Positions 13,605 to 49,807 of a stretch of 64,000 nt of DNA are shown here, in pieces. The position numbers were made by a program, and so were the translations under genes. The stretch is from Gammaproteobacteria bacterium (GTDB lineage Bacteria; Pseudomonadota; Gammaproteobacteria; Nitrosococcales; Methylophagaceae). Each line of letters opens with the position of its first letter. Position 1 is the stretch's first letter. Where the stretch lies: the NCBI GenBank assembly GCA_034110895.1, contig JAWUYH010000025.1, positions 671 to 64,670 on the forward strand, in the 5' to 3' direction. Under the pieces are notes generated by a model. That model was not told where the DNA came from, made no database searches, and saw only the letters and a list, made by a program, of their open reading frames with translations.

Positions 13605-14921
13605 GTGAAAAAGTTATCTACAACAACAAGAGGCCTACTCAGAGAAATTAAAGCTGAGGCAGCTGAAATACCAGTGGCAGAGCGTCGAAACTTTTTACTA
13701 AGGGGACTACAACTAACAGCGGGTTCTGCCTTTGCTATGGGCGCTGCTAAAGTAATGGCTGAGGGTTCATTGCCGCCAAATATACCCGCATGGACTAAAT
13801 CATTAGGTCGAGGCGTAGTATCAGTCCCTTACGGTCAACCTTCTAGGTTTGAAGATGATGTTATACGCCGTACCGTATCTTGGCTAACCGCGACAACAGA
13901 ATCTTCAATCAGCATGACGCCGATACATGAAATGAAGGGCATAATTACGCCTAGTGGTTTGGTATTTGAACGTTATCATGCCGGTTTACCTGATGTGGAT
14001 CCTGATCAACACCGTTTAATGATACATGGTATGGTCGACAATCCTATTACATTGACCATGGATGATTTAATGCGCTTTCCATCTGAGTCAGTTATTCATT
14101 TTCTTGAATGCCCAGCTAATGGTGGTATGGAGTGGCATGGCACACAAATGGAAGCATTACAGTTTACGCACGGTATGCTCAGTTGCTGTGAATGGACAGG
14201 GGTTAAATTATCAACCATTTTGGAAGAAGTCGGCATTTCACCCGATGCTAAATGGGTCTTAGCGGAGGGTGCTGATGGTGCAACCATGACTCGTAGTATT
14301 CCTATAGAAAAAGCGTTAGATGATACTCTGGTTGTTTATGCTCAAAATGGTGAAAAATTACGTCCAGAACAGGGTTACCCCGTTAGATTGTTTAATCCAG
14401 GCTGGGAAGGCAATACCAGCATCAAGTGGCTGCGTCGTTTAGAAATTGGTGATAAACCTTGGTATCAAAGGGAAGAAACATCGAAATATACTGATTTAAT
14501 GCCAGATGGAACAGCAAGAAAGTTCAGTTTTATTCAAGAATCAAATTCAGTGATAACCTCACCGTGTCCTGAGCGGCCGATGTTAAGGAAAGGGGTGCAT
14601 GAGTTAGAAGGCATCGCCTGGTCTGGCCGAGGAACAGTTAAACGGGTGGATGTTTCACTTGATGGCGGAGTAAGCTGGCGTCAAGCTAAACTTAAAGGTT
14701 TGGTGCTTCCAAAAGCAATTACTCGATTTAGCCTGGAAATTAATTGGCAGGGAGAACCACTTTTACTGCAAAGTCGTTCTATTGATGAAACCGGCTATGT
14801 ACAACCTACACTGACTCAATTACGTGATATACGAGGTAGTAATTCTATCTACCATAAAAATTCCATTCATACATGGAAATTAGATACAGATGGGACGGTA
14901 AGTAATGTTCAATTGGGATAA
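13605..14921 (+). CDS. soxC: Molybdopterin sulfane/sulfite dehydrogenase subunit SoxC
   Basis: GTG start. Tat-like leader RRNFLLRGLQLTAGSAFAMG. Sulfite-oxidase-family size and architecture. Followed by a di-haem cytochrome c and the rest of sox. Confidence 0.8.
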   Translation: MKKLSTTTRGLLREIKAEAAEIPVAERRNFLLRGLQLTAGSAFAMGAAKVMAEGSLPPNIPAWTKSLGRGVVSVPYGQPSRFEDDVIRRTVSWLTATTESSISMTPIHEMKGIITPSGLVFERYHAGLPDVDPDQHRLMIHGMVDNPITLTMDDLMRFPSESVIHFLECPANGGMEWHGTQMEALQFTHGMLSCCEWTGVKLSTILEEVGISPDAKWVLAEGADGATMTRSIPIEKALDDTLVVYAQNGEKLRPEQGYPVRLFNPGWEGNTSIKWLRRLEIGDKPWYQREETSKYTDLMPDGTARKFSFIQESNSVITSPCPERPMLRKGVHELEGIAWSGRGTVKRVDVSLDGGVSWRQAKLKGLVLPKAITRFSLEINWQGEPLLLQSRSIDETGYVQPTLTQLRDIRGSNSIYHKNSIHTWKLDTDGTVSNVQLG

Positions 14922-14928
14922 TAAAATA

Positions 14929-15885
14929 ATGATCAAGGTGTTGTTATTAATCAGCATATTTGCCTTTTCACAAACAGTGTGGAGTAAAGATTCTGGCTAC
15001 TACGGTTATGGTCAGCCTGCAACTCCAGAAGAAATAGCTGGCTGGGATATAGATGTGAGGCCTGATGGTAAAGGTCTACCGATTGGAAGTGGCACGGTCT
15101 CATATGGTGAAGAGTTATATGAAGCTAAATGTGCATCGTGTCATGGTGCGTTTGGTGAAGGTGAAGGACGTTGGCCAAAACTGGCAGGTGGTTTTGATAC
15201 CTTATCTGACGCAAAACCTGAAAAAACAGTAGGTAGTTATTGGCCCTATGCCAGTACTCTGTGGGATTATATTCATCGTGCAATGCCATTTACACAGCCA
15301 CAGTCATTAACCGCTGATGAAACATATGCATTGACAGCGTATGTACTTTATCTCAATGAAATTATTGAGGATGAAGACTTTGAACTTAATCAAGATAATT
15401 TTACTGACATTGAAATGCCTAATAAAGACGGCTTTTTTGTCGATCCAAGACCAGATGTTAACAATCCAGCTTGTATGAATGATTGCAAAGATCCAGCAGC
15501 AATAAAAGTAACGTCAGCGATTAAAGGGATCACACCACTTGAACATATAGACAAAGAAAAACAGTCAAGTGAACAAAAAATGCCCGTTATTGAAGAGCAA
15601 TCTATAACGGATCCATCAAAAGTAAATGAAATGAAAATGGGTGGTAGTATCTATGGTAAGTCGTGTGTTATCTGTCATGGACAAGGTGTAACTGGTGCAC
15701 CGATATTTGGCGATAAGGAGGCTTGGGCACCGCGCATCAAACAAGGGCTTGAATTACTCAATAAACATGCATTAGAAGGCTATGCTGGCGATGCAGGTGT
15801 TATGCCGGCTAAAGGTGGCAACCCAAGCTTAACAGATCAAGAAGTTAATGCAGCGGTGTTGTATATGATAGAGAATAGTCAATAA
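14929..15885 (+). CDS. soxD: Di-haem cytochrome c subunit SoxD
   Basis: Signal peptide MIKVLLLISIFAFSQTVWS. Two CxxCH motifs (CASCHG, CVICHG). Start ATG 14929 preferred over 14905, which overlaps soxC. Confidence 0.7.
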   Translation: MIKVLLLISIFAFSQTVWSKDSGYYGYGQPATPEEIAGWDIDVRPDGKGLPIGSGTVSYGEELYEAKCASCHGAFGEGEGRWPKLAGGFDTLSDAKPEKTVGSYWPYASTLWDYIHRAMPFTQPQSLTADETYALTAYVLYLNEIIEDEDFELNQDNFTDIEMPNKDGFFVDPRPDVNNPACMNDCKDPAAIKVTSAIKGITPLEHIDKEKQSSEQKMPVIEEQSITDPSKVNEMKMGGSIYGKSCVICHGQGVTGAPIFGDKEAWAPRIKQGLELLNKHALEGYAGDAGVMPAKGGNPSLTDQEVNAAVLYMIENSQ

Positions 15886-15922
15886 GAGTTGTTTATTTAA
15901 GTCTGAAAGAAAAGGAAAGAAT

Positions 15923-16297
15923 ATGAATAAAGTAGCAATACAAATAGTTGGCTTAGTGACTCTTTTTACAATGGGTATTTCATATTCCTTAGCAACTGAA
16001 GTTGATCCATCAGCAAATGAAGCTAGTGTCCTAGAACAAGGTAAACAATTAGTTTTTGATAGAAAAAAAGGTAATTGTTTAGCCTGCCATGCTATTTCTG
16101 GTGGTGAGTTAATGGGAAATTTAGGTCCTGAGTTAGTCAATATGAAAGGTCGATATCCAGATAAAAGAATACTTAAGGACCAGATTTGGGATGCAACAAA
16201 ACAAAATCCAGCAACCTCTATGCCTCCCTTTGGAAGACATAGAATGTTGACAGATGAAGAAATCAATAAAGTGGTTGAGTATATCTACAGCCTATAA
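15923..16297 (+). CDS. soxX: Monohaem cytochrome c SoxX
   Basis: 124 aa, signal peptide, single CLACH haem motif, positioned immediately before soxYZA. Confidence 0.75.
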   Translation: MNKVAIQIVGLVTLFTMGISYSLATEVDPSANEASVLEQGKQLVFDRKKGNCLACHAISGGELMGNLGPELVNMKGRYPDKRILKDQIWDATKQNPATSMPPFGRHRMLTDEEINKVVEYIYSL

Positions 16298-16326
16298 AGA
16301 TTATTAAGAATTAACGAGAGGTCAAC

Positions 16327-16788
16327 ATGTTAGAAAACAGAAGAAAAATACTAAAAAGGATCGTTGAGGCAACAGCCGTAATAGGTGCTGTACTAATAAT
16401 GCCTAAACTAGCATTTGCAAAATGGTCAAAAGCTTTTGATGCGGATACAACAGAAGCAGCAATGACAGGTTTGTTTAACAACACTGAAACAATCGCGAGT
16501 GATAAAGTATTTTTGAAAGTACCTGAAATTGCAGAAAATGGGGCCGTTGTGCCAGTTAATGTGAAAACTGATATTGAAAATGTAAAAAGCATAAGTGTCG
16601 TCGCTTTTAAAAACCCACAACCCTTAGCATGTTCATTCACTATTCCTGAAGGCACAGATAGTGATGTATCAATTCGAATTAGATTATTCGAAACTATGGA
16701 TGTACAAGCGATAGTTGAGACCCATGATGGCAAGCTATTTAGTGTACAAAAAGAAGTGAAAGTCACCATCGGTGGTTGTGGCGGTTAA
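16327..16788 (+). CDS. soxY: Sulfur carrier protein SoxY
   Basis: Tat leader NRRKILKR and the diagnostic C-terminal GGCGG* swinging-arm motif. Confidence 0.9.
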   Translation: MLENRRKILKRIVEATAVIGAVLIMPKLAFAKWSKAFDADTTEAAMTGLFNNTETIASDKVFLKVPEIAENGAVVPVNVKTDIENVKSISVVAFKNPQPLACSFTIPEGTDSDVSIRIRLFETMDVQAIVETHDGKLFSVQKEVKVTIGGCGG

Positions 16789-16809
16789 GGTTGAATTGGG
16801 GATATAAAA

Positions 16810-17112
16810 ATGAAAGTTAAAGCAAAAGTAAAAAATGACAAAGTAAAAGTAAAATTATTGGTTAAACATCCTATGGATACTGGATTACAAAAAGACAAAA
16901 ATAGTGGTGATTTAATACCTGTCAAATATATTCATGAATTATCTTGTGTTCACGATGGGAAAACAGTTTTCTTAGCAAGCTTTGGCAGGGCTGTGTCGAA
17001 GGATCCGTATCTAGCATTTTCATTTTCTGGTGGTAAAAAAGGCGATACCTTGTCACTGAAATGGGTAGATAGCATGGGTGATACAGAAGAATTTGAAGCG
17101 GTTATTAAATAA
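16810..17112 (+). CDS. soxZ: SoxZ (SoxY partner)
   Basis: 100 aa. KVKLLVKHPMDTGLQKD...LIPVKYI is the conserved SoxZ core. Directly after soxY. Confidence 0.85.
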   Translation: MKVKAKVKNDKVKVKLLVKHPMDTGLQKDKNSGDLIPVKYIHELSCVHDGKTVFLASFGRAVSKDPYLAFSFSGGKKGDTLSLKWVDSMGDTEEFEAVIK

Positions 17113-17137
17113 AGTCACGCATAGAAGGGCTTCCAAC

Positions 17138-17974
17138 ATGAAACGAAAAACCTATTTTACATTAGCTATAGCAATCAGTATGTCAGTGATGACGCCAAGT
17201 TTTGCTGATCCTGTTTCTGATAATGAAACAGTAAGAACATATTTTGCAGATATTTTCCCAGAACTTGCTCTAGAAAGCTATGTAGATGGTGCTTATGCAA
17301 TAGATAAAAATGGTCGGGATCAGTGGCTACAAATTGAAGAGTTTCCTCCCTATGATGATGCTATAGACAATGGTGAAGAGTTATTTGATATTGCTTTTGC
17401 AAATGGTAAGTCCTATGCAAGCTGTTTCGATAATGAGGGTATTGCGATAAAACAAAACTACCCTTACTTCGATACAGAAAAAAACCAAGTGGTTACACTG
17501 GAGTTAGCCATTAACGAGTGTCGTATTAAAAACGGTGAGCAGCCATTAGCCTACGGTAAAGGACCTCTTGCCTATCTATCTGCGTATATGGCATCAACAT
17601 CTCGTGGTGAATTAATTAATGTAATTGTGCCTGACAATGCAGGTGCACAAGCTGCCTATGAAGAGGGCAAAAAATTCTTCTATGCACGACGTGGACAACT
17701 TAATATGGCCTGTGCTACTTGTCATATGGCGAGTGCTGGTAAGCGATTACGGGCAGATATTTTAAGTCCTGCCTTGGGGCATGTCAGTCATTTCCCTGCC
17801 TTTAGAGCTAAGTGGGATGATGTGGGTACGATTCAACGACGTTATGCTGGTTGTAATATGCAAATTCGTTCAAAACCATTTAAGTTACAAAGTGAACAGT
17901 ATCGGAACTTAGAATATTTTCATACTTATATGAGTAATGGTCTTCCTTTAAATGGTCCTGGCACAAGGAAATAA
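17138..17974 (+). CDS. soxA: Cytochrome c SoxA (monohaem type)
   Basis: Signal peptide MKRKTYFTLAIAISMSVMTPSFA. CATCH haem motif. Conserved RYAGCNMQIR Cys-ligand region. Start ATG 17138 chosen because 17078 overlaps soxZ. Confidence 0.8.
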   Translation: MKRKTYFTLAIAISMSVMTPSFADPVSDNETVRTYFADIFPELALESYVDGAYAIDKNGRDQWLQIEEFPPYDDAIDNGEELFDIAFANGKSYASCFDNEGIAIKQNYPYFDTEKNQVVTLELAINECRIKNGEQPLAYGKGPLAYLSAYMASTSRGELINVIVPDNAGAQAAYEEGKKFFYARRGQLNMACATCHMASAGKRLRADILSPALGHVSHFPAFRAKWDDVGTIQRRYAGCNMQIRSKPFKLQSEQYRNLEYFHTYMSNGLPLNGPGTRK

Positions 17975-17975
17975 C

Positions 17976-18389
17976 ATGATGACTAAAATAAATAAGCTAA
18001 AGCTGGTTTGTATCTTGCTAATTCCCGTTATATTGTCTGCCTGTTCTGATAAGGAAGACGCTGCTGACGTTGCTAACGAGCCTATACAGCAACAAGAACC
18101 GCTTGCACAAACTATAAAACAGAAGGTAATGGAAACAACAAGTGTCGAGGTGCATTTACAAGATTTAATGCATCATGTCGCTCAGGAAGAACGTCATGCG
18201 AATAAGTATGGCTATGTGTGGAGTGTCACGGAAGCACTCATCGTTAAAGGTTATGCCGAGGCAGAAAAAGGCAATGAAAAAATAGCTAAACAGTTATTCT
18301 ATGAGGCAAAGTTACAATTCGAACTTTCGGTTGAGCAAGCAAAATATGCTGAGCAGAATTGGACACTACTTGTTCCTGAAGAATATTAA
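17976..18389 (+). CDS. Hypothetical helical lipoprotein in the sox operon (occupies the SoxK position)
   Basis: Lipobox VILSAC-S. Starts 2 nt after the soxA stop. No motifs recognised; the SoxK assignment rests on position only. Confidence 0.4.
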   Translation: MMTKINKLKLVCILLIPVILSACSDKEDAADVANEPIQQQEPLAQTIKQKVMETTSVEVHLQDLMHHVAQEERHANKYGYVWSVTEALIVKGYAEAEKGNEKIAKQLFYEAKLQFELSVEQAKYAEQNWTLLVPEEY

Positions 18390-18418
18390 TCTAAGTCTAA
18401 ACTCATAAGGTAAAAATA

Positions 18419-19069
18419 ATGAAAAAACTATTAATTAGTACAGCAATATTGTTCTCAAGTTTATTTTTTATAAGCCAGTCCTATGCATTAGAAGTTCAGA
18501 TCACACCAGATTTAGCATCCGTTGATGTTATGCATGATGGTGAAAAAGTGACGATTATGCGAAATCAAGATACCAAAAATACGGTTAATCCAGATTATGC
18601 TAAAACATCTAGAATGTGCCCACCTTTTTGTATCAGACCAATAAAAATTGCTGAAGGTGTAGAAACGGTTGGTGAAGTAGAAATGATTCACTATTTGAAA
18701 ATGAAAAGTGATGGTGACGACTCTATCTTAGTGATCGATTCACGCACACCAGATTGGGTTGCTAAAGGAACTATTCCAGGTTCTATCAATATTCCATGGG
18801 TGAAATTATCACCAGCCAAAGGTGCCGATCCATTTAGTATTGCAGAAATCATGCAAGAACAATTTGGCGTTATCGAACAAGAGGGTTTATGGAATTTTTC
18901 AAAAGCTAAAACCTTAGTGATGTATTGTAATGGTATGTGGTGTGGTCAATCACCAAGAAATATCCTTGCTTTGTTAAACTTTGGCTACCCAGCAGCAAAA
19001 ATCAAATGGTACCGCGGTGGTATGCAAAACTGGGAAGCATTAGGTTTATCAACAGTAAAACAAAAATAA
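18419..19069 (+). CDS. Periplasmic rhodanese-domain sulfurtransferase (SoxL-like)
   Basis: Signal peptide. Rhodanese active-site loop YCNGMWCGQSPR. Lies between soxA and soxB. Confidence 0.7.
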   Translation: MKKLLISTAILFSSLFFISQSYALEVQITPDLASVDVMHDGEKVTIMRNQDTKNTVNPDYAKTSRMCPPFCIRPIKIAEGVETVGEVEMIHYLKMKSDGDDSILVIDSRTPDWVAKGTIPGSINIPWVKLSPAKGADPFSIAEIMQEQFGVIEQEGLWNFSKAKTLVMYCNGMWCGQSPRNILALLNFGYPAAKIKWYRGGMQNWEALGLSTVKQK

Positions 19070-19095
19070 TTACAGAGTAGTCTCAACAAACTTCA

Positions 19096-19167
19096 CCACT
19101 GCCCTTGGTATAGGTATCAAATTTTTTGATCCTTATTACCTTAAATTATAGGGCAGTGGTTTTTTTA
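19096..19167 (+). terminator. Long-loop hairpin plus T-run between the rhodanese gene and soxB
   Basis: ccactgccct (19096..19105) pairs with agggcagtgg (19150..19159), followed by T8. The loop is ~44 nt with an internal small hairpin, so this is an attenuator or weak terminator at best. Confidence 0.4.
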
Positions 19168-19189
19168 GTTTTTTATATCCGGTTATATT

Positions 19190-20944
19190 ATGAATCGTCG
19201 TGAATTCGCCCAAATACTTGCAGCAGCAAGTGTAGCAAACATCTTTCCAAGAACTAGTTTTTCAAAAGGTTTAGATGCTTCATCTGCAGATATGTACGAA
19301 ATGCCAAACTTTGGTAACGCTCGGCTTTTGCATATGACGGATAGTCATGCCCAATTATTACCAGTATATTTCAGAGAACCAAGTGTCAATATTGGGATCA
19401 CGACTGAAAATGGACGACCTCCACATTTAGTGGGTGATCATTTTCTAGATTATTTTGGCATTAAAAGTAATAGCATATCAGCGCATGCCTTTACTTCACT
19501 TGACTTCACGCAAGCAGCCAACCAGTTTGGTAAAGTAGGTGGTTATGCTCACTTAAGCACACTAGTTAAAAAACTACGCCAATCATATGGTGACCAAGGA
19601 CGCTCCTTATTACTGGATGGCGGTGATACATGGCAAGGTTCTGCCACAGCCTATTGGACACGTGGTAAAGATATGGTTGAAGCATCCAATATTTTGGGTG
19701 TAGACGTGATGACAGGGCATTGGGAGTTCACTTATAAGGATGATGAAGTATTGGAAAATATTTCAGAGTTCAATGGCGAATTTCTTGCTCATAATGTAAA
19801 AGTAGACGAAGAAGCCTTATTTGATGGGGCTGAAGCCTACGATGAAGATGAGGGTTATGCCTTTAAACCCTATACTATGAAAGCAATGGGGGATCACCGA
19901 GTAGCCATTATAGGCCAAGCATTTCCCTATACACCAATTGCAAATCCTAAACGATTTATCCCTGATTGGACTTTTGGTATTCAATCAGATGAGCTACAAC
20001 AACTTATTGATAAGGTTCGCGAAACTGAGTCACCTGATGCGGTGATTCTTTTGTCACATAATGGTATGGATGTTGACTTGAAGTTAGCTGCCACAGTGAC
20101 CGGTCTGGACGTTATATTAGGTGGACATACTCACGATGGTGTACCCAAACCGGTGGCTGTTAAAAATTCAAGTGGTACTACCTTAGTAAGCAATGCGGGC
20201 TCTAATGGTAAATACCTCGCAGTATTGGATTTGGAGCTCGGAAAGGGACGTGTTATCGATTATCGTTATACCCTGCTGCCTGTCTTTTCAAACTTCATCG
20301 ATGCCGATCCAGAAATGGCTAGTTATATTGAAAAAACGCGTCAACCTTATCTTGATATATTGACTGAAAATTTGGCGGTAGCAGATGAGTTGCTATATCG
20401 ACGAGGTAATTTTAACGGCACATTTGATCAAGTAATATGTAATGCTTTATGTGACGTTAATGGTGCGGATATTTCACTTTCTCCAGGTTTTAGGTGGGGA
20501 ACAACAGTACTACCTGGGCAAGCGATTACGATGGAACATGTAATGGACCAGACATGTATTACATATCCTGAAACCTATACCAGAGATATGACCGGCACCC
20601 AAATCAAGGCAATATTAGAAGATGTCTGTGACAATATCTTTAATCTAGACCCATTTTATAGGCAAGGTGGTGATATGGTTCGACTTGGTGGTATGGACTA
20701 CACCTGTGATCCAACAGCTGTCATGGGTAAACGGATCACAGAAATGCGACTCAATAACGGTGAAATGATTAGTGCAAGTAAGACGTATAAAGTAGCAGGT
20801 TGGGCAACGGTTAATTCACAGTCTGACGGTGCGCCTATTTGGGACGTTGTGGCGGATTATTTACGTGAGATCCAACATGTTACTTTGGATAAACTTAATA
20901 CTCCCATCATTAAAAATATGGAAGGTAATAAAGGTATTGTTTAG
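19190..20944 (+). CDS. soxB: Thiosulfohydrolase SoxB (di-manganese, 5'-nucleotidase fold)
   Basis: Tat leader MNRREFAQILAAAS. Metallophosphoesterase motifs (HMTDSHAQ, GGDTWQGS, GHWEF, LSHNG, GGHTH). 584 aa. Confidence 0.9.
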   Translation: MNRREFAQILAAASVANIFPRTSFSKGLDASSADMYEMPNFGNARLLHMTDSHAQLLPVYFREPSVNIGITTENGRPPHLVGDHFLDYFGIKSNSISAHAFTSLDFTQAANQFGKVGGYAHLSTLVKKLRQSYGDQGRSLLLDGGDTWQGSATAYWTRGKDMVEASNILGVDVMTGHWEFTYKDDEVLENISEFNGEFLAHNVKVDEEALFDGAEAYDEDEGYAFKPYTMKAMGDHRVAIIGQAFPYTPIANPKRFIPDWTFGIQSDELQQLIDKVRETESPDAVILLSHNGMDVDLKLAATVTGLDVILGGHTHDGVPKPVAVKNSSGTTLVSNAGSNGKYLAVLDLELGKGRVIDYRYTLLPVFSNFIDADPEMASYIEKTRQPYLDILTENLAVADELLYRRGNFNGTFDQVICNALCDVNGADISLSPGFRWGTTVLPGQAITMEHVMDQTCITYPETYTRDMTGTQIKAILEDVCDNIFNLDPFYRQGGDMVRLGGMDYTCDPTAVMGKRITEMRLNNGEMISASKTYKVAGWATVNSQSDGAPIWDVVADYLREIQHVTLDKLNTPIIKNMEGNKGIV

Positions 20945-23577: not shown

Positions 23578-23595
23578 CTAGAGAGTAAAATAGTA

Positions 23596-25581: not shown

Positions 25582-25630
25582 AATTTGATAGCTTAAACAC
25601 TAAATGTATCAGAACTATAAAAGGAAAAGA

Positions 25631-38343: not shown

Positions 38344-38356
38344 AGCTGATAATATA

Positions 38357-40040: not shown

Positions 40041-40045
40041 AGTAT

Positions 40046-44453: not shown

Positions 44454-45140
44454 ATGGCAATAGGTGATCATCTAGCAGATGTAAAAATACTTTATGGTGT
44501 AGCAGGTTGTGCACAAACAAGCAAATGTCTATTTGTAGCAGCTGAAAAAGGCATCGATATTGATGGCCGAGCACTTGATGTGAATTCAGCCACAGACATG
44601 GCACAAATCAAAGCGGGTTCACCGTTTGATATTTTACCAGTACTAAAAGATGTAGATTTCTATGTATATGGTACCGAAGCAATATTGTCATATCTTGATG
44701 ACAAGGGTTTTGGTAATTCGCTAGTACCTAGAAATGGAGTTGCAAGAGCTCAACAATACCAATGGATTGGGGTTGCTCAGCATGTGTTTGCTCCAGAAGT
44801 AAAAAAAATCAGTGATGGGAATTCAGATAGTGTCGCACTAGAAAATGTGAAAGGCATTTTAGCTAATCTTGAAAATCAGCTTACGAGTAAACCACAACGT
44901 GGAGATTATATCGTTGGTGATTTAACCTTAGCAGATATTCACTGGGCTCCTTATATCCATAGCTGTTGCTTGTATGGCAATGAAGCACTTATTGATGCTT
45001 TACCTGCTGTTAAAAAGTGGTGGTCACATATGAAAGTAAGAAAGAGTACGAGTAAAGAAAATTATGTTGCTTACACGGTATTACCATCACTCGATGAAAT
45101 TCGTAACAACATAGTACGTTCAGTCAGTATCAATGCATAA
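44454..45140 (+). CDS. GST-fold protein, paralogue C
   Basis: KILYGVAGCAQTSKCLFVAAEKGIDI, LPVLKD...YGTEAILSYLDDKGFGNSLVPR, LADIHW, C-terminal VLPSLDEIRNN. Confidence 0.6.
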   Translation: MAIGDHLADVKILYGVAGCAQTSKCLFVAAEKGIDIDGRALDVNSATDMAQIKAGSPFDILPVLKDVDFYVYGTEAILSYLDDKGFGNSLVPRNGVARAQQYQWIGVAQHVFAPEVKKISDGNSDSVALENVKGILANLENQLTSKPQRGDYIVGDLTLADIHWAPYIHSCCLYGNEALIDALPAVKKWWSHMKVRKSTSKENYVAYTVLPSLDEIRNNIVRSVSINA

Positions 45141-45178: not shown

Positions 45179-46246
45179 ATGTTCGGATTTTTCAAAAATA
45201 AAAAGCTAGACTACGAAGTAAAAATTAATTCAGGCAATACCCTGGTAGTCAAGGCCGGTGACAACTTGTTAAAAGCAGCCTTACAGGCTGATATTGCATG
45301 GCCTCACGACTGTCGAGTTGGCAGTTGTGGGACCTGTAAATGCAAACTTGTTGACGGCAAAATAAAAGCACTCGCTGATTTCAGTTATGTTTTAGAGGGT
45401 GAAGAGTTACGAGATGGTTATATTTTAGCGTGTCAAACTCAATTAAGATCAGATGTTTCAGTCGAAGTTGCATTGCTTTCTGACAGCGAAAAACAAAGCC
45501 ATTGGGAATCAGATGCTGTAATTACAACTATCAATGATCTTACACATGATATTAAAGAGGTCATAGTTGAGATTGATGTTAATGAGCTGCCTAAAGGTGT
45601 CAGTCTATTTAAAGCCGGCCAGTATGCCGATCTGAAAATACCTGAGTTAAGCGAAGGCAGAAATTATTCATTTGCTTCAGCACCACATGAAAATCAAAAC
45701 CAATTTAAGTTTTATATTAGACACGTACCCGGTGGTGAGTTTACTGACTGGTTATTCGACACCGATCGAACAGGTCAAGCTCTTAAGATGTCAGGGCCTT
45801 TTGGTGTGTTTGGTCTAAAAGAAGATAAGCTACCAATGACATGTATTGCAGGCGGTAGCGGCATGAGTGCAGTCATCAGTGTCTTACAACAGGCACTGTC
45901 GTCTGGAGTAAAACGCAATGTACGTTTCTTATTTGGAGCAAGAACTGAAGCAGATCTTTATTGTGGAGATTTGATTGATCAATTAGCTGCAGATTGGAAA
46001 AAGAAAGGCTTAGGGACATTTGAATATTTACCATGCCTATCACAAGAACCAGAAGCTAGTGCATGGCAGGGCCGAAGAGGTTCTTGCATAGATTATATTG
46101 TTGAAGAGGGTGTCAAACTTTCTGGACAAGCTTATTTATGTGGACCACCTGGAATGATTGATGCCGGAATAAGTATCTTCGAAAAAAACGGCATAACAAA
46201 AGATGCAATATTCTTTGATAAATTTCTTGATAAGAGTAACCAATAA
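45179..46246 (+). CDS. XylA-type oxidoreductase: N-terminal plant-type 2Fe-2S ferredoxin fused to an FAD/NAD(P)H ferredoxin-reductase module
   Basis: CRVGSCGTCKC...ACQT cluster ligands. RNYSFAS flavin motif. GGSGMS and CGPPGM nucleotide-binding motifs. Confidence 0.85.
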   Translation: MFGFFKNKKLDYEVKINSGNTLVVKAGDNLLKAALQADIAWPHDCRVGSCGTCKCKLVDGKIKALADFSYVLEGEELRDGYILACQTQLRSDVSVEVALLSDSEKQSHWESDAVITTINDLTHDIKEVIVEIDVNELPKGVSLFKAGQYADLKIPELSEGRNYSFASAPHENQNQFKFYIRHVPGGEFTDWLFDTDRTGQALKMSGPFGVFGLKEDKLPMTCIAGGSGMSAVISVLQQALSSGVKRNVRFLFGARTEADLYCGDLIDQLAADWKKKGLGTFEYLPCLSQEPEASAWQGRRGSCIDYIVEEGVKLSGQAYLCGPPGMIDAGISIFEKNGITKDAIFFDKFLDKSNQ

Positions 46247-46271: not shown

Positions 46272-46481
46272 ATGGCTTCATTTAAAGCATTGATAGTAAT
46301 GGCTATATGGACTGGAATCGTAGGGTATGGCTTGTATAGCGTAGGGGCACATCAAAGTGAAAACTATACTCAACCACTTTGGGCAATCGCAATTGGTACT
46401 GGTTTATTAGTAACGCATATTGTAAACATGGCGATTTATTTCAAAGTGGCAGGCGAAAGACCATTTGAGTGGATTAAATAA
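46272..46481 (+). CDS. Small two-TM membrane protein (69 aa)
   Basis: Strong RBS gggagga upstream of ATG 46272. Two hydrophobic helices (ALIVMAIWTGIVGYGLY; LWAIAIGTGLLVTHIV). No homology recognised. Confidence 0.45.
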   Translation: MASFKALIVMAIWTGIVGYGLYSVGAHQSENYTQPLWAIAIGTGLLVTHIVNMAIYFKVAGERPFEWIK

Positions 46482-46539: not shown

Positions 46540-47796
46540 ATGAATAATAAAAAATATTTAGCAATAGTGATTGCAGCATTAGCTGCCTCATCAACTGCAG
46601 TTGTAGCCGGTACAAACGGTACCGATTTAAATAATAACTTGTTGCCAGCAACGGGTGGTATGGGTGGAGCGAGTGTTGCTCGCACCGTAGAGCCAGCTGC
46701 AGCCGTATTTGGTAACCCTGCCAACTTAACTCAATATAATGAAGGCACTAGTTTTACCTTTGGTGCCACTTATTTTGACCATAATGTCGAAGGTAATGCA
46801 TCAGCTGCTTTTGGTGGTGCAGATATTAAGTCACAAACAAATCCTTATTTAGTACCCACCATTGCTATTACCCAAGCCTTTAGTGAAAACCTTGTAGCAG
46901 GTTTAGGCCTATCTGTAACTGCTGGTCTAGGTGCAGATTTTAGAGGAGAAGGTATTGGCGATCCTCTTAGTGAACTTATTGTGTTTAATGCAAATGTTGG
47001 TGCGGGTTACAAAGTAACAGAAAACTTATCATTGGGCGCTATGGCCACTATTGGTAATGGTTATTTTCAAGCCAGCACAAATGAAAATTCTGGCTCGACT
47101 CATAACTTTGGTTTTAGAGCAACAGTAGGCGGAAAATATGATATGGGCGCTACCAGTTTTGGTGCCTATTACAGAAGTGAACTGAAAATCCGCTACGATA
47201 ATTATATTTCTGATGGAGCCGGTAATTTCTGGGATGATCATGTAGCTCAACCAGCAGAAATAGCGTTTGGTGTTGCTAATAATAGTCTGATGGGCGGAGC
47301 CTTACAAGTTAATGCCGATGTTATTCATAAAGATTATTCTGGTGCTGCTTTCTACAAAGATTTCTATCGTGATCAAACCGTATTTAATTTAGGTGCTCAG
47401 TTAACGACTGGAAAGGCACAATGGCGCGTAGGTTATAGTCATGCTAGAGATCCAATTAAACGTAATCTTGATCCAGGTAATATTGGTATCGGTGGCAACG
47501 ATCCTATCCAAACCCCTTCAGCATTCGTACCATTATTTGGTCCACAGCTTCCTGTTACTGGTCCAGTCGTAGAGTATTTCCAAGCTACTAATGCAGCTGC
47601 TGTTTGGGAAAATACGGTTACCGCAGGTATGGGTTATCAACTAATGCCTAATATTAAAGTAGATATACATGCTGCATTTTCACTAGACAATGAAGAAGAT
47701 ATTGGTACTGCCAATAGTGCTCTCGGCGATAATGTTTGGACAATAGAAGCCTCAGCATGGCAAGCAGGCCTTGGTCTTACATGGTCTTTTAAATAA
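46540..47796 (+). CDS. FadL/TodX/XylN-type outer-membrane hydrophobic-compound channel
   Basis: Signal peptide. N-terminal hatch-like GGMGGASVARTVEPAAAVFGNPANLT. Beta-strand-rich with a terminal ...GLGLTWSF aromatic residue. Confidence 0.7.
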   Translation: MNNKKYLAIVIAALAASSTAVVAGTNGTDLNNNLLPATGGMGGASVARTVEPAAAVFGNPANLTQYNEGTSFTFGATYFDHNVEGNASAAFGGADIKSQTNPYLVPTIAITQAFSENLVAGLGLSVTAGLGADFRGEGIGDPLSELIVFNANVGAGYKVTENLSLGAMATIGNGYFQASTNENSGSTHNFGFRATVGGKYDMGATSFGAYYRSELKIRYDNYISDGAGNFWDDHVAQPAEIAFGVANNSLMGGALQVNADVIHKDYSGAAFYKDFYRDQTVFNLGAQLTTGKAQWRVGYSHARDPIKRNLDPGNIGIGGNDPIQTPSAFVPLFGPQLPVTGPVVEYFQATNAAAVWENTVTAGMGYQLMPNIKVDIHAAFSLDNEEDIGTANSALGDNVWTIEASAWQAGLGLTWSFK

Positions 47797-47817: not shown

Positions 47818-48309
47818 ATGAATACATTAATTAAAAGCATCGCAATCGCGGGAATAATGAGTACTTCATTTGCCGCGATGAATGTTGTTGCAGTAGAAGT
47901 AGCCGCTGAAATGCCAGCAGTAGCAGCACCATCACTTTATGAACGTATTGGTGGGGAAGTTGTATCAAGAGCCATTGTTGAAGATATTTGGACTAACCAT
48001 AGTAACAATCCTATTGTTAAAGGTCGCTTTCTTTATAGTGATGCTGAGCAAGTGAAAGAGCGCGTATTTGAAATATTTGCTGTAGCAACTGGTGGCGATG
48101 TTAAATATAACGGTATGGATTTAGCTGAAAGACATAGCAATATGAATATCAGTGATATGGAATTTAATGCTGCTGTAGATGATATTATGGCTGCATTGAC
48201 TAAAAACAATATTGCTCAAAAAGAAAAAGACGAAGTATTAGTCATTCTATGGTCAGTTAAACCTGCCATAGTTAACACTTTTATGACAACTGAAGCTTTA
48301 ACTAAATAA
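47818..48309 (+). CDS. Truncated haemoglobin with an N-terminal export signal
   Basis: Leader MNTLIKSIAIAGIMSTSFAAMNVVA followed by LYERIGG...AERHSNMNISDMEFNAAVDDIMAAL. Paralogous to 43827..44189. Confidence 0.75.
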   Translation: MNTLIKSIAIAGIMSTSFAAMNVVAVEVAAEMPAVAAPSLYERIGGEVVSRAIVEDIWTNHSNNPIVKGRFLYSDAEQVKERVFEIFAVATGGDVKYNGMDLAERHSNMNISDMEFNAAVDDIMAALTKNNIAQKEKDEVLVILWSVKPAIVNTFMTTEALTK

Positions 48310-48326
48310 ACAAAGTTTGGCTCACT

Positions 48327-48365
48327 AAAACCAACGTCTATATTTAATAGACGTTGGTTTTATTG
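48327..48365 (+). terminator. Rho-independent terminator
   Basis: aaaaccaacgtctat / atagacgttggtttt 15-bp stem, 5-nt loop, T-rich tail. Confidence 0.7.
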
Positions 48366-48441
48366 TTTTAAAGAACGAATATTGTATAACAGTCAAAATA
48401 ATCAGCTACATAAAGCTTACTTATCAATAGAGAGAATTATT

Positions 48442-48705
48442 ATGCCAAAATATATTATTGAAAGAGAAATACCGGGTGCAGGTAACTGGACGCAAGAGGA
48501 TATCGCCGGAATTACAGAAAAATCATGTTCAATCCTAAAAGACATGGGTCCAGAAATAGAATGGCTTCATAGTTATGTGACAGATGATAAAGTTTATTGT
48601 CTATACAATGCTGTCAATGAGCAAGCCGTTATGGATCATGCAACGGAAGGTGGTTTCCCCGCTAATAAAATCACTGAAGTAAAAAATATGCTTAACCCTC
48701 AATAA
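48442..48705 (+). CDS. DUF4242-like small protein
   Basis: MPKYIIEREIPGAGNWTQED...VYCLY.A...AV..HA..GGFPA resembles the DUF4242 family. Start ATG 48442 preferred to 48382. Confidence 0.55.
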   Translation: MPKYIIEREIPGAGNWTQEDIAGITEKSCSILKDMGPEIEWLHSYVTDDKVYCLYNAVNEQAVMDHATEGGFPANKITEVKNMLNPQ

Positions 48706-48739
48706 CGGTTTAAATTTAGCCCAGATTAGAATAATTATA

Positions 48740-49807
48740 ATGCTTAAAACAAGTTTTACTAAATTGGTCGGTATTCAATGGCCAATTGTGCAAGCACCGA
48801 TGATTGGTGGCTATAGCAGTCCTGAAATGGTTGCTATAGTTTCTAACTTAGGTTGTTTAGGCACACTTGCATTGGGTAATTTGAGTGCAGAGCAAGTCAC
48901 ACAACACTGTCTACAAGCCTTAGCACTGACCGATAAACCTATTGCTGCCAATTTATTTGCACATTCCAATCAAGAGTTCATAAGCGAGACAGATAAGACG
49001 CCAGCAATTAAGGCTCTACAAACTCATTATCAGCAGTTAGATATTGATGACAGTGTACTGTTTAATCAAACCTTAACTGACTTACCTGATTTAGATTCAC
49101 AGGTTGAAGCCATTATTAATACCGCGGTGCCCATTGTCAGCTTCACTTTTGGAATTCCTAATCGCGCTATCGTAAAAAAACTTAAACAACATGGTAAAAT
49201 CGTTATTGCAACGGCAACTACTATTGAAGAAGCCAAACAAATTGAACAAAATGATTTTGACGCGGTGATCTTACAAGGTATCGAAGCAGGTGGTCACCGC
49301 GCTTCCTTTCTTAGCGATGGACATAGCGGTCCAACGTCACAATCATTACTCAAACAAACACAACAAGCCATTTCTATTCCCATCGTCATTACCGGTGGCA
49401 TCATGAATGGTCAGCATATAGCGCAGCACATTAACAATGGTGCTAAAGCTTGTCAGCTTGGTACGGCCTTTTTATTCACTAATGAGTCTAAAATAGAACC
49501 TTTTTATTTGCAAGCATTGTTACAACAACAAAATAAAACCTGTCTTAGTAAGGCTTTTACCGGTAAATATGCACGTATTATTAACAATAAGTTTGCTCAA
49601 CAAATGGTCAATAAGGCTATTGCTGACTTTCCCTATCAAGGACAATTAACATCAAGTCTTCGTAGTAAAGCAACAGCGCTAGCACAGTATGAATACCTTC
49701 CTTTTTGGGCGGGTGAATCATATGCCTTAGGCTGTCTTCAATCGGCCGAAATGCTGACAAAAAAACTAATTAAAGAATTACAGAGCGCAATCAGCACTCA
49801 AAAGTGA
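48740..49807 (+). CDS. Nitronate monooxygenase (2-nitropropane dioxygenase) family FMN enzyme
   Basis: IQWPIVQAPMIGG, LQGIEAGGHRASF, ITGGI motifs of the NMO TIM-barrel family. Confidence 0.8.
   Translation: MLKTSFTKLVGIQWPIVQAPMIGGYSSPEMVAIVSNLGCLGTLALGNLSAEQVTQHCLQALALTDKPIAANLFAHSNQEFISETDKTPAIKALQTHYQQLDIDDSVLFNQTLTDLPDLDSQVEAIINTAVPIVSFTFGIPNRAIVKKLKQHGKIVIATATTIEEAKQIEQNDFDAVILQGIEAGGHRASFLSDGHSGPTSQSLLKQTQQAISIPIVITGGIMNGQHIAQHINNGAKACQLGTAFLFTNESKIEPFYLQALLQQQNKTCLSKAFTGKYARIINNKFAQQMVNKAIADFPYQGQLTSSLRSKATALAQYEYLPFWAGESYALGCLQSAEMLTKKLIKELQSAISTQK

What the first reader, a model, noticed from the sequence alone, without database searches (positions are those of the whole stretch)
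13605..49807. A ~36-kb run of sulfur-metabolism modules ends in the AlkB-like locus: is the substrate a volatile organosulfur compound?
Seen in sequence: the following modules are contiguous. First sox (13605..20944), then the mtoX module (22198..26125). Next come the MetX-like and ACAD-fold genes, a two-component system, GST-fold genes, PDO/SQR/SulP (34136..38343) and finally the AlkB-like locus. Established knowledge: methanethiol oxidase yields H2S, formaldehyde and H2O2, and PDO/SQR/Sox oxidise the sulfide. No gene in the window resembles the known flavin-type DMS monooxygenase. Inference: methyl hydroxylation of dimethylsulfide or a related thioether by the AlkB-like enzyme would release methanethiol plus formaldehyde and feed the neighbouring modules. 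GST-fold proteins could handle the thiol or formaldehyde adducts.
Basis: inference. Interest (0 to 1): 0.6.

Follow-up and report, generated by a model that had tools for sequence, protein, structure and literature searches.

The report
Candidate AlkB-type dimethylsulfide monooxygenase locus
A marine methylotroph keeps an AlkB-like membrane oxygenase next to its methanethiol- and sulfide-oxidising genes, and comparative genomics plus published expression data make it the best candidate for the long-missing enzyme that starts dimethylsulfide breakdown in Methylophaga-type bacteria.

Summary
Window 13.6-49.8 kb carries soxCD(X)YZA-B, mtoX/SCO1-MauG/TlpA, MetX-like/ACAD/PAS-kinase/LuxR regulator, two GST-fold genes, PDO/SQR/SulP, NorQ/NorD and an AlkB-like operon.

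The adjacency is not accidental.
- Among 400 near-complete Gammaproteobacteria, 16 of 17 genomes with this AlkB-like protein also have mtoX, against 15 of 383 without it.
- In Methylophagaceae the figures are 13 both, 1 AlkB-like only, 2 mtoX only and 67 neither.
- The two genes lie 2-25 kb apart in at least five lineages, in different arrangements.
- The palindrome ATACGTAT marks the sox, PDO and AlkB-like promoter regions here. It is conserved upstream of AlkB-like, MetX-like and mtoX genes in relatives.

Methylophaga thiooxydans DMS010 holds the same block. I mapped its published DMS-induced genes "fatty acid desaturase" MDMS009_226 (1359 vs 10), MDMS009_61 and glbN onto the AlkB-like gene, its reductase and a globin. 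A SIP-identified DMS-consuming MAG also carries the cassette. The genome has no DmoA-type gene.

Best reading (about 0.55): an AlkB-family DMS (thioether) methyl hydroxylase that yields methanethiol plus formaldehyde. The biochemistry is untested, and the papers I found still call this step unidentified in Methylophaga. It is a new variant of a known kind.

The parts
12513..13493 (-). MBL-fold protein, divergent from soxC; the shared 111-bp intergenic region carries the ATACGTAT motif at 13526
   Evidence: Pfam Lactamase_B; motif; an MBL0 homologue sits beside soxC in L006/L007
13605..20944 (+). sox cluster: soxC, soxD, cytochrome c (probable soxX), soxY, soxZ, soxA, an unknown ORF, a rhodanese, soxB
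   Evidence: Pfam Oxidored_molyb/Mo-co_dimer, Cytochrom_C, SoxY, SoxZ, SoxA-TsdA, Rhodanese, 5_nucleotid_C
20976..21890 (+). MBL-fold protein after soxB (SoxH-like position)
   Evidence: Pfam Lactamase_B_2
22198..23577 (+). methanethiol oxidase MtoX
   Evidence: NF052453 741 bits, cut-off 650; SBP56
23596..25581 (+). SCO1-MauG fusion, the presumed MtoX maturation factor
   Evidence: Pfam SCO1-SenC + CCP_MauG; same gene order as the mto clusters of M. thiooxydans
25604..26125 (+). TlpA/AhpC-like thioredoxin-fold protein of the mto cluster
   Evidence: Pfam AhpC-TSA/Redoxin
26456..28807 (+). MetX-like alpha/beta hydrolase (26456-27505) and ACAD-fold flavoprotein (27611-28807)
   Evidence: NCBIfam PRK07581 447 bits; ACAD domains; found next to the AlkB-like cassette in Methylophagaceae, L018 and L030
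28809..31402 (+). PAS histidine kinase (28809-30764) and LuxR/GerE response regulator (30761-31402); candidate regulator pair of the block
   Evidence: Pfam; linked to the AlkB-like gene in 9 of 80 loci including distant ones; the M. thiooxydans orthologue is MDMS009_167
31814..33283 (+). two GST-fold paralogues (GSTa 31814-32479, GSTb 32507-33283)
   Evidence: weak Pfam GST_N/GST_C; homologues sit inside the AlkB-like cassette in 17 distant loci
33723..33730 (.). ATACGTAT palindrome (in TGATATACGTATAA) about 410 bp upstream of PDO
34136..38343 (+). persulfide dioxygenase (34136-34840), DUF442/BLH sulfurtransferase-SQR fusion (34863-36524), SulP permease (36589-38343)
   Evidence: Pfam and NCBIfam; same order after mtoX in M. 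thiooxydans
39225..42130 (-). NorQ/CbbQ-type AAA+ ATPase (39225-40040) and NorD-like VWA protein (40046-42130), divergent from the AlkB-like gene
   Evidence: Pfam AAA_5 + CbbQ_C; VWA; conserved upstream of the AlkB-like gene in Methylophagaceae loci
42443..42450 (.). ATACGTAT palindrome (in GGATATATACGTATAC) 143 bp upstream of the AlkB-like start
   Evidence: conserved at -122 to -149 in L002-L005, L009, L011, L013-L015 and G080; genome-wide enrichment P=4e-6
42586..43770 (+). AlkB-family membrane di-iron monooxygenase (394 aa), candidate DMS/thioether methyl hydroxylase; strong terminator-like hairpin at 43778-43802
   Evidence: PF00487; profile match to the solved AlkB 8sbb, E 4e-35; homologues; terminator
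43827..44189 (+). truncated (2-on-2) globin without a leader
   Evidence: Pfam Bac_globin; follows the AlkB-like gene in 25 of 80 loci
44454..45140 (+). GST-fold protein of the core cassette
   Evidence: Pfam GST_N_3/GST_C_3; 38 of 80 loci; distant PDB GST matches
45179..46246 (+). 2Fe-2S ferredoxin-FAD-NAD(P)H reductase (BenC/MmoC/XylA architecture), presumed electron donor
   Evidence: Pfam Fer2 + FAD_binding_6 + NAD_binding_1; NCBIfam and PDB; 38 of 80 loci
46272..46481 (+). 69-aa protein with two hydrophobic, transmembrane-like segments, conserved with the cassette
   Evidence: orthologues of 67-71 aa starting MASFKA in 29 of 80 loci
46540..47796 (+). FadL/TodX-type outer-membrane channel for hydrophobic substrates
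   Evidence: AF2 model pLDDT 72, pTM 0.76; Foldseek top hits TodX 3bs0 (E 5e-29), FadL, TbuX, CymD
47818..48309 (+). second truncated globin with an N-terminal hydrophobic leader
   Evidence: Pfam Bac_globin; sequence
48382..51092 (+). SCO4226-like small protein (48382-48705), NMO-family FMN oxidoreductase (48740-49807), methyltransferase-fold protein (49902-51092)
   Evidence: Pfam; the AF2 + Foldseek hits for 49902-51092 are SAM methyltransferases, E about 1e-8 with low TM; syntenic in Methylophagaceae

Best explanation
The block is a dimethylsulfide-to-sulfate catabolic unit, and the AlkB-like enzyme carries out its first step.

Proposed route (inferred unless marked otherwise):
1. DMS, or a close methyl thioether, crosses the outer membrane through the FadL/TodX-type channel (46540-47796).
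2. The AlkB-family membrane di-iron monooxygenase (42586-43770) hydroxylates one methyl group. It receives NAD(P)H electrons through the ferredoxin-FNR reductase (45179-46246). The 69-aa membrane protein and perhaps the globin assist it.
3. The hemithioacetal CH3-S-CH2OH falls apart, spontaneously or with help from a GST-fold protein, into methanethiol and formaldehyde.
4. MtoX (annotated by homology), matured by SCO1-MauG and TlpA, oxidises methanethiol to formaldehyde, H2S and H2O2.
5. SQR and PDO, then Sox, take the sulfide to sulfate, and SulP may export the sulfate/sulfite.
6. Formaldehyde enters the RuMP cycle.

NorQ/NorD would load or repair the metal centre. The PAS kinase and LuxR regulator would act through the ATACGTAT site to co-regulate the operons.

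Shown here: the gene content, the co-occurrence and linkage, the conserved motif, and the DMS induction of the M. thiooxydans orthologues. Inferred: the substrate, the reaction, and the roles of the accessory proteins.
For: 1. Co-occurrence. In 400 near-complete Gammaproteobacteria, 16 of 17 AlkB-like genomes have mtoX, against 15 of 383 others. The genomes with both belong to 10 GTDB families. In 83 Methylophagaceae the counts are 13 both, 1 AlkB-like only, 2 mtoX only and 67 neither, and all three exceptions are 81-84% complete. Of 50 further AlkB-like genomes, 46 have mtoX. AlkB-like carriers are almost a subset of mtoX carriers, as expected for an upstream feeder enzyme.

2. Linkage despite rearrangement. 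The two genes lie 2-25 kb apart in Methylophagaceae, in families f10, f159 and f119, and in L006/L007.

3. Expression. G080 is M. thiooxydans DMS010, shown by coordinate matches and a 68/68-nt identity to MDMS009_167. It holds the same block. On the 292-kb scaffold that carries locus tags below 300, the AlkB-like gene is the only FA_desaturase-domain gene. Table S6 of PMC6548844 gives, for DMS versus methanol: MDMS009_226 1359 vs 10, 'oxidoreductase NAD-binding' MDMS009_61 618 vs 12, and glbN MDMS009_199 601 vs 21.

4. Other DMS degraders. The cassette is in M. sulfidovorans (L015) and in SIP MAG 21, accession JAIBDZ (L009). Thirty-four of 37 genomes of the Methylophaga genus lack both genes.

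5. No alternative enzyme. The genome has no luciferase-like gene (so no DmoA) and no Tmm. The papers state that the Methylophaga DMS-to-methanethiol enzyme is unidentified. A 2026 review lists only DmoA, DdhA, DsoB and Tmm.

6. Shared regulation. ATACGTAT lies upstream of sox, PDO and the AlkB-like gene. Three of the 19 genomic copies fall in 4.1 kb of block intergenic DNA (P=4e-6, the best of 256 palindromic 8-mers). The site is conserved in relatives upstream of AlkB-like, MetX-like and mtoX genes.

7. Uptake. A TodX/FadL-type channel sits in the operon.

8. Downstream fit. The organism is a RuMP methylotroph.

9. From my own knowledge, not checked here: Pseudomonas AlkB oxidises methyl thioethers and demethylates methyl ethers.
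Against: - There is no biochemical or genetic test of the enzyme.
- According to PMC6548844, Boden et al. 2010 detected no DMS monooxygenase activity in DMS-grown M. thiooxydans and proposed a methyltransferase. A membrane multi-component enzyme could have been missed, but that is only an excuse.
- Induction on DMS could respond to methanethiol, sulfide or H2O2 rather than DMS. The enzyme might therefore act on a by-product.
- The authors of the RNA-seq study read the gene as a lipid desaturase for membrane repair.
- The mapping of MDMS009_226 rests on locus-tag range plus domain uniqueness, not on the deposited sequence. The strand column of Table S6 is internally inconsistent for the two mtoX genes.
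- One of the nine canonical AlkB histidines is a glutamine, so the chemistry may differ from AlkB.
- Four of 50 AlkB-like genomes, and one of 17 in the class sample, show no mtoX.
- In several sponge-symbiont lineages the two genes are far apart.
- A terminator-like hairpin directly follows the AlkB-like gene.
Confidence: 0.55

Rival explanations
1. The AlkB-like enzyme belongs to organosulfur metabolism but acts on another substrate or in another way. Possibilities are S-oxygenation of DMS to DMSO, oxidation of dimethyl disulfide or trisulfide formed from methanethiol plus H2O2, or attack on another methylthio compound. The neighbouring ACAD-fold or methyltransferase-fold protein might then perform the real first DMS step.
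For: The same co-occurrence, linkage and induction data fit any methanethiol-linked substrate. Paralogues at 48-61% identity coexist in single genomes, which suggests several substrates. A methyltransferase-fold protein and an ACAD-fold protein are syntenic, and earlier physiology proposed a methyltransferase. AlkB is known to sulfoxidise thioethers (my own knowledge).
Against: DMS was the only carbon and sulfur substrate in the inducing culture, and MtoX was induced massively. Methanethiol must therefore come from DMS, and no other induced oxygenase or corrinoid methyltransferase is listed. DMSO formation would not explain the near-subset relation to mtoX. SAM-type methyltransferases do not normally demethylate thioethers. 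The ACAD and methyltransferase-fold genes are far less widely linked to the cassette than the GST, reductase and small membrane protein.
Confidence: 0.22
2. The gene encodes a membrane lipid desaturase or hydroxylase. It is switched on as a stress response to H2O2 and sulfide from methanethiol oxidation. This is the reading of the authors of the M. thiooxydans study.
For: The Pfam family is FA_desaturase. The authors proposed membrane-lipid homeostasis. Co-induction with MtoX would follow if H2O2 were the signal.
Against: The protein carries the AlkB-specific NYxEHYG motif and matches the solved AlkB, not desaturases. It has its own XylA-type reductase and a TodX-type substrate channel in the operon. 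About half of the mtoX genomes lack it. The other FA_desaturase gene of M. thiooxydans lies on a different contig.
Confidence: 0.08
3. The locus has a reactive-nitrogen theme. NorQ/NorD, truncated globins (NO dioxygenase-like) and a nitronate-monooxygenase-family protein handle NO or nitroalkanes, and the AlkB-like protein is part of that task.
For: Pfam assigns CbbQ/NorQ, VWA, Bac_globin and NMO. A first-stage note raised this reading.
Against: There are no nor or nir genes in the window. NorQ/NorD and NMO are restricted to Methylophagaceae loci, whereas the conserved core is AlkB-like, GST, reductase and the small membrane protein. The cassette tracks mtoX and is induced by DMS.
Confidence: 0.05
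4. It is an ordinary alkane or aromatic-side-chain hydroxylase, as automatic annotation (K00496) says. It happens to sit in an accessory region next to sulfur genes.
For: Sources name the homologues 'alkane 1-monooxygenase'. The architecture (AlkB-family oxygenase + Fer2-FNR reductase + TodX-like channel) is that of xylene or cymene monooxygenase systems. Methylophaga has been implicated in hydrocarbon degradation.
Against: There are no alcohol or aldehyde dehydrogenase genes and no rubredoxin in the locus. Identity to the solved AlkB is only about 30%. The 94% versus 4% association with mtoX across 10 families, and the DMS induction, are unexplained by hydrocarbon use.
Confidence: 0.05

Closest known systems
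AlkB alkane 1-monooxygenase (Pseudomonas putida GPo1; solved Fontimonas thermophila AlkB, PDB 8sbb/8f6t)
   Same: Membrane FA_desaturase-superfamily di-iron enzyme. Conserved HELxH, HxxxHH and NYxEHYG motifs. The profile match to 8sbb has E 4e-35 over residues 90-356.
   Different: About 30% identity. The first His of box 3 (LQRHSDHH) is an invariant Gln (IGRQGDHH), with an extra invariant His six residues later. There is no rubredoxin or rubredoxin reductase in the locus. The partners are a GST-fold protein, a truncated globin, a 69-aa membrane protein and NorQ/NorD. The genomic and transcriptional context is methanethiol and sulfide oxidation, not alkane oxidation.
Xylene/p-cymene monooxygenases XylMA and CymAaAb with OM channels XylN/CymD/TodX
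   Same: An AlkB-family membrane hydroxylase paired with a single ferredoxin-FNR fusion reductase, plus a FadL/TodX-type outer-membrane channel in the operon. These enzymes hydroxylate a methyl group (the family architecture is from my own knowledge).
   Different: No downstream benzyl-alcohol or aldehyde dehydrogenases. The context is sulfur metabolism. I did not compare sequences with XylM here, because no named XylM sequence was available to the tools.
DmoAB, the FMNH2-dependent DMS monooxygenase of Hyphomicrobium sulfonivorans
   Same: The proposed reaction (DMS + O2 + reductant gives methanethiol + formaldehyde) and its position upstream of MtoX.
   Different: An unrelated fold: soluble luciferase-like flavin enzyme versus membrane di-iron enzyme. 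No luciferase-like gene exists in this genome.
mto clusters 1 and 2 of Methylophaga thiooxydans DMS010 (Kroeber & Schaefer 2019, PMC6548844)
   Same: mtoX, SCO1-MauG, TlpA-like, PDO, SQR and SulP in the same order at 35-76% identity. mto-cluster 1 lies 8 kb from the orthologous AlkB-like operon.
   Different: In this window the PDO/SQR/SulP genes are separated from mtoX by the MetX-like/ACAD/two-component/GST genes. A complete sox cluster (with soxA and soxB) sits upstream. M. thiooxydans lacks soxAB according to the paper.
NorQ/NorD (CbbQ/CbbO) MoxR-VWA chaperone pairs
   Same: The same two-gene architecture, with AAA_5 + CbbQ_C and a C-terminal VWA domain.
   Different: The pair is coupled to a membrane di-iron hydroxylase rather than to NO reductase or RuBisCO. 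Only Methylophagaceae-type loci carry it. Its function here is inferred.

Membership tests
AlkB-type membrane di-iron monooxygenase (FA_desaturase superfamily) | PF00487 domain and significant similarity to a solved AlkB | tested here: met
   PF00487 85.8 bits; family profile versus 8sbb E 4e-35 and 8f6t E 3e-33
AlkB-type membrane di-iron monooxygenase (FA_desaturase superfamily) | His box 1 (HELxH), His box 2 (HxxxHH) and the AlkB-specific NYxEHYG motif | tested here: met
   GHELAH, AHVYNHH and NYMEHYG are invariant in 13 homologues and align with the FtAlkB motifs
AlkB-type membrane di-iron monooxygenase (FA_desaturase superfamily) | His box 3, HxxHH (LQRHSDHH), completing the nine-histidine di-iron site | tested here: not met
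   The box aligns as IGRQGDHH. The first His is an invariant Gln, and an extra invariant His follows six residues later. This is a variant site, so I file the protein as AlkB-like rather than canonical AlkB.
AlkB-type membrane di-iron monooxygenase (FA_desaturase superfamily) | Rubredoxin / rubredoxin-reductase electron chain | tested here: not met
   Pfam found no rubredoxin among the window's listed ORFs. A Fer2-FNR reductase is present instead.
XylMA-type two-component methyl-group monooxygenase | Reductase with an N-terminal plant-type 2Fe-2S domain followed by FAD and NAD(P)H domains, encoded with the hydroxylase | tested here: met
   Fer2 18-89, FAD_binding_6 116-211 and NAD_binding_1 223-329; BenC/MmoC-like; co-located in 38 of 80 loci
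XylMA-type two-component methyl-group monooxygenase | Close sequence relationship of the hydroxylase to XylM | not tested
   No named XylM sequence was available to the tools
DmoA flavin-dependent DMS monooxygenase | Luciferase-like (PF00296) FMNH2-dependent oxygenase | tested here: not met
   No PF00296 match anywhere in the 99.6%-complete genome
Any DMS monooxygenase (functional class) | DMS-dependent O2 and NAD(P)H consumption with formation of methanethiol plus formaldehyde | not testable with these tools
   Only indirect evidence exists: DMS induction of the orthologue and co-occurrence with mtoX
MtoX methanethiol oxidase module | Score above the NF052453 equivalog cut-off, with an adjacent SCO1/MauG maturation gene | tested here: met
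   741 bits versus cut-off 650; the SCO1-MauG fusion lies directly downstream
Sox thiosulfate-oxidising system | SoxYZ, SoxB, SoxXA and SoxCD all present | tested here: inconclusive
   SoxC, D, Y, Z and A have family-specific Pfam hits. SoxB rests on a 5'-nucleotidase C-terminal domain hit plus size and position. SoxX is inferred from a 124-aa cytochrome c at 15923-16297 with no specific model.
FadL/TodX outer-membrane hydrophobic-substrate channel | 14-stranded beta-barrel fold with an N-terminal hatch and a signal peptide | tested here: met
   AF2 model pTM 0.76. Foldseek hits are TodX (E 5e-29), FadL (TM 0.62-0.69), TbuX and CymD. The sequence has an N-terminal leader and a C-terminal WSF. 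No sequence-level Pfam or PDB hit was found.

The most novel reading that the evidence does not exclude
The cassette of AlkB-like enzyme, GST, globin, reductase and small membrane protein is the long-sought DMS-to-methanethiol monooxygenase of marine Methylophagaceae. It is also widespread in sponge-symbiont and other marine sulfur-oxidising Gammaproteobacteria. It would be a second, membrane-bound di-iron type of DMS monooxygenase, unrelated to DmoA. Part of the 'alkB' (K00496) signal in ocean metagenomes would then report DMS consumption rather than alkane degradation.
Probability: 0.5. Interest if true: 0.9.

Novelty: new variant of a known kind. Interest (0 to 1): 0.78.

Why it matters
DMS is the main biogenic sulfur gas leaving the ocean, and bacterial consumption controls how much escapes. 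For Methylophaga and related Piscirickettsiaceae, which SIP studies identify as key marine DMS consumers, the enzyme that converts DMS to methanethiol has been missing since 2010. Papers from 2019 and 2022 say so explicitly, and a 2026 review still lists only DmoA, DdhA, DsoB and Tmm.

This analysis nominates a specific, testable gene set. It also shows that the supporting expression data already exist but were read as a lipid-stress response.

If confirmed, the finding would have three consequences:
- It would give a functional marker for DMS oxidation alongside mtoX.
- It would extend AlkB-family chemistry to thioether demethylation.
- It would call for a re-reading of marine 'alkB' gene counts, since these proteins are auto-annotated as alkane 1-monooxygenase and are abundant in marine metagenomes, including Tara Oceans data.

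Tried and rejected
- **Sequencing runs.** I could not re-map the M. thiooxydans RNA-seq or look for expression of the window itself.
- **Direct look-up of MDMS009_226.** The sequences of MDMS009_226 and MDMS009_61 are not in the stored supplements, because the file of re-annotated hypothetical proteins is truncated. The mapping therefore rests on three points. G080 is proven to be DMS010. Locus tags fall in ranges by scaffold. The AlkB-like gene is the only PF00487 gene on that scaffold.
- **Island boundaries.** I tried to define them from flanking genes (TgpA, RapA) across the genus. The GTDB genus is too diverse (63-87% RapA identity) and the flanks are not syntenic, so no empty site could be shown. 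The window has no tRNA, integrase or transposase and no composition shift. The block is therefore patchy and accessory but not demonstrably mobile.
- **12-mer motif.** ATATACGTATAT with 2 mismatches is not enriched against window shuffles. I kept only the exact 8-mer/10-mer analysis against the whole genome, together with the phylogenetic footprint.
- **Sequence searches for the 418-aa protein.** Pfam, NCBIfam and PDB gave nothing. Only the fold search identified it.
- **Schaefer 2007** (DMS-induced polypeptides) is not held in the library.
- **Prior claims.** I searched for an AlkB-type DMS monooxygenase in the literature and found none.
- **Rejected readings.** These were an accidental adjacency, a canonical alkane hydroxylase, and a reactive-nitrogen locus. 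The reasons are given under the rival explanations.

Full report
**What is there.**
The window comes from a 2.55-Mb, 99.6%-complete genome at about 37% GC. The genome falls in the same GTDB family as Methylophaga sulfidovorans and M. thiooxydans.
The modules are:
- a sox cluster, 13605-20944;
- mtoX (741 bits, above the 650-bit equivalog cut-off) with a SCO1-MauG fusion and a TlpA-like protein, 22198-26125;
- a MetX-like hydrolase, an ACAD-fold protein, a PAS histidine kinase and a LuxR-type regulator, 26456-31402;
- two GST-fold genes, 31814-33283;
- PDO, a DUF442-SQR fusion and SulP, 34136-38343;
- NorQ/NorD on the minus strand, 39225-42130;
- an operon starting with an AlkB-like gene, 42586-43770.

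After the AlkB-like gene come a truncated globin, a third GST-fold gene and a ferredoxin-FNR reductase. These are followed by a 69-aa membrane protein (46272-46481) and a 418-aa exported protein. The operon then continues with a second globin carrying a leader, a SCO4226-like protein, an NMO-family protein and a 396-aa protein.
The flanks hold housekeeping genes. There is no tRNA, integrase or transposase. The composition is uniform.

**The AlkB-like protein.**
It has more than 1000 close homologues, mostly from marine metagenomes including Tara Oceans data. Many are auto-named 'alkane 1-monooxygenase' or K00496. One is the 'fatty acid desaturase' of M. sulfidovorans at 83% identity.
A profile of 13 homologues matches only the two solved AlkB structures in the PDB (8sbb, E 4e-35). 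HELAH, AHVYNHH and NYMEHYG align with the AlkB motifs. The third box reads IGRQGDHH where AlkB has LQRHSDHH, so one canonical histidine is an invariant glutamine.
The reductase has the Fer2-FAD-NAD architecture of BenC, MmoC and XylA.
The 418-aa protein had no sequence-level match. Its AlphaFold model (pTM 0.76) hits TodX, FadL, TbuX and CymD (E down to 5e-29). It is therefore an outer-membrane channel for small hydrophobic substrates, as found in toluene, xylene and cymene operons.
The 396-aa protein has a methyltransferase-like fold, though the structural match is weak.

**Is the adjacency accidental?**
I fetched 80 loci encoding relatives (66-90% identity) from GTDB genomes and mapped the window's proteins onto them.
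- The conserved core is the AlkB-like gene with the GST (38 loci), the reductase (38), the small membrane protein (29) and a globin (25).
- Homologues of the other two GST-fold genes join the cassette in 17 distant loci.
- ACAD, kinase and regulator are neighbours in Methylophagaceae and in two distant lineages.
- NorQ/NorD are neighbours in Methylophagaceae.
- sox follows the cassette in four loci, and mtoX lies within 10 kb in one.

At genome level the association with mtoX is striking.
- In 83 Methylophagaceae, 13 genomes have both genes, 1 has only the AlkB-like gene, 2 have only mtoX and 67 have neither. The three exceptions are 81-84% complete.
- In the Methylophaga genus, the same 3 of 37 genomes have both.
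- In an even sample of 400 near-complete Gammaproteobacteria, 16 of 17 AlkB-like genomes have mtoX, against 15 of 383 others. The 16 genomes belong to 10 GTDB families.
- Of 50 further AlkB-like genomes, 46 have mtoX.

AlkB-like carriers are thus nearly a subset of mtoX carriers, which is what an upstream feeder enzyme would show.
The two genes lie 2-25 kb apart in Methylophagaceae and in families f10, f159 and f119, and also in the L006/L007 lineage. They are far apart in several sponge-symbiont lineages.
Related genomes are not independent, so I give counts per family rather than a P-value.

**A shared promoter element.**
The palindrome ATACGTAT occurs three times in the window, and all three copies are intergenic:
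- in the 111-bp divergent region before soxC;
- about 410 bp before PDO;
- 143 bp before the AlkB-like start.

Genome-wide there are 19 copies. Fourteen of the other 16 lie inside ORFs of at least 100 aa. The 10-mer ATATACGTAT occurs only at these three sites in 2.55 Mb.
Among all 256 palindromic 8-mers it is by far the most enriched in the block's 4.1 kb of intergenic DNA. The binomial P is 4e-6, and the next best is 0.026.
The site is conserved at -122 to -149 of the AlkB-like gene in ten related loci. It also recurs upstream of the MetX-like operon and in the mtoX divergent region of relatives, including M. thiooxydans.
This points to one regulon. The LuxR-type regulator in the block is the obvious candidate, but that assignment is inference.

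**Expression evidence already in the literature.**
Genome G080 is M. thiooxydans DMS010, on three grounds:
- One of its two mtoX genes lies at the coordinates the paper gives for MDMS009_211.
- The TlpA-like gene of the second cluster lies at the paper's coordinates for MDMS009_894 when counted from the other contig end.
- The first 68 nt of the block's kinase gene are identical to the paper's MDMS009_167.

Its 292-kb scaffold carries the same gene set as window 22-51 kb, rearranged and without sox.
Locus tags below about 300 belong to that scaffold, and the AlkB-like gene is its only FA_desaturase-domain gene.
Table S6 of Kroeber & Schaefer 2019 lists the following, as DMS versus methanol. 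All three genes are on the strand that fits:
- 'fatty acid desaturase domain protein' MDMS009_226, 1359 vs 10;
- 'oxidoreductase, NAD-binding domain' MDMS009_61, 618 vs 12;
- glbN MDMS009_199, 601 vs 21.

The authors interpreted the desaturase as membrane repair. They noted that the primary DMS enzyme was missing and might be 'a hydrolase or monooxygenase'.
Two 2022 papers repeat that the Methylophaga enzyme is unidentified. A 2026 review lists only DmoA, DdhA, DsoB and Tmm.
MAG 21 of Liu et al. 2022 (JAIBDZ) was flagged by isotope probing as a DMS consumer, with mtoX as its only known gene. It is my locus L009, which carries the AlkB-like gene with NorQ/NorD and the ACAD/kinase/regulator genes.

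**Interpretation.**
The genome has no luciferase-like gene, so no DmoA, and no Tmm. It is a RuMP methylotroph.
The simplest reading is that the AlkB-like enzyme hydroxylates a methyl group of DMS. The hemithioacetal then releases methanethiol and formaldehyde. MtoX, SQR/PDO and Sox finish the sulfur oxidation, and formaldehyde is assimilated.
I put this at about 0.55. I put the broader claim, that the cassette serves methanethiol-linked organosulfur metabolism, at about 0.85.

The main caveats are:
- There is no enzymology.
- The earlier DMS monooxygenase assay was negative and a methyltransferase was proposed.
- The inducer may be a downstream product.
- The metal site is altered.
- A terminator-like hairpin directly follows the AlkB-like gene.
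- The locus-tag mapping is indirect.

The rivals are another methylated-sulfur substrate or S-oxygenation, a lipid-stress role, a reactive-nitrogen role and ordinary alkane hydroxylation. The report weighs each separately.

**Limits.**
Island boundaries could not be defined, because the flanks are not syntenic within this diverse genus.

Noticed in passing
window 43501-43539 (box 3 of the AlkB-like protein): The first histidine of the third AlkB histidine box is an invariant glutamine (IGRQGDHH versus LQRHSDHH). An extra invariant His lies six residues downstream. The di-iron ligand set may therefore differ from that of the solved AlkB.
   Followed up: partly
window 47818-48309: The second truncated globin carries a hydrophobic N-terminal leader, so it may be exported. 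It sits directly after the TodX-like channel gene. A periplasmic 2-on-2 globin would be unusual.
   Followed up: no
window 49902-51092: A conserved 396-aa protein with no Pfam hit models as a SAM-methyltransferase-like fold (Foldseek E about 1e-8, low TM). This is of interest because earlier physiology proposed a 'DMS methyltransferase'.
   Followed up: partly
window 52709-53983 (-) and 10392-10841 (-): A Cys/Met-metabolism PLP enzyme (MetY/MetB type) lies just downstream of the block, and MsrB lies just upstream. My speculation is that such an enzyme, together with the MetX-like gene, could assimilate methanethiol into methionine.
   Followed up: no
window 55065-56468: A GGDEF-EAL gene appears broken into three consecutive ORFs: GGDEF 55065-55583 and EAL halves 55605-56039 and 56127-56468. 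It is probably a pseudogene or contains sequencing frameshifts.
   Followed up: no
G250:C9:186027-187190 and G403:C2:69627-70790 (family f119): The AlkB-like matches in two related genomes each contain two in-frame TAA stops, although both genomes carry two mtoX copies 18 kb away. The genes may be decaying, or the stops may be assembly artefacts.
   Followed up: no
G034, G035, G023, G528, G255 and many sponge-symbiont MAGs (for example L010-L012, L034/L035/L081): Single genomes carry 2-5 AlkB-like paralogues at 48-78% identity. Some are solitary and some have the full cassette, which hints at several substrates within the family.
   Followed up: no
PMC6548844 Table S6: The strand labels of the two mtoX genes (211 '-', 768 '+') disagree with those of their co-directional SCO1/MauG partners (51 '+', 908 '-') and with the genome (G080). 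The two labels look swapped.
   Followed up: partly
window 38258-38761: This ORF overlaps the end of SulP. It has 47-50% identical homologues next to NorQ or mtoX in L002, L004, L005, L015 and M. thiooxydans. It is a real gene of unknown function, and the true start is probably near 38357.
   Followed up: no
window 42190-42290: The NorD/AlkB-like intergenic region also holds two direct copies of GTTAACGTATAA (42253 and 42275) and a TAATACGTAG element (42190). These share the ACGTA core of the palindrome and may be additional regulator sites.
   Followed up: partly
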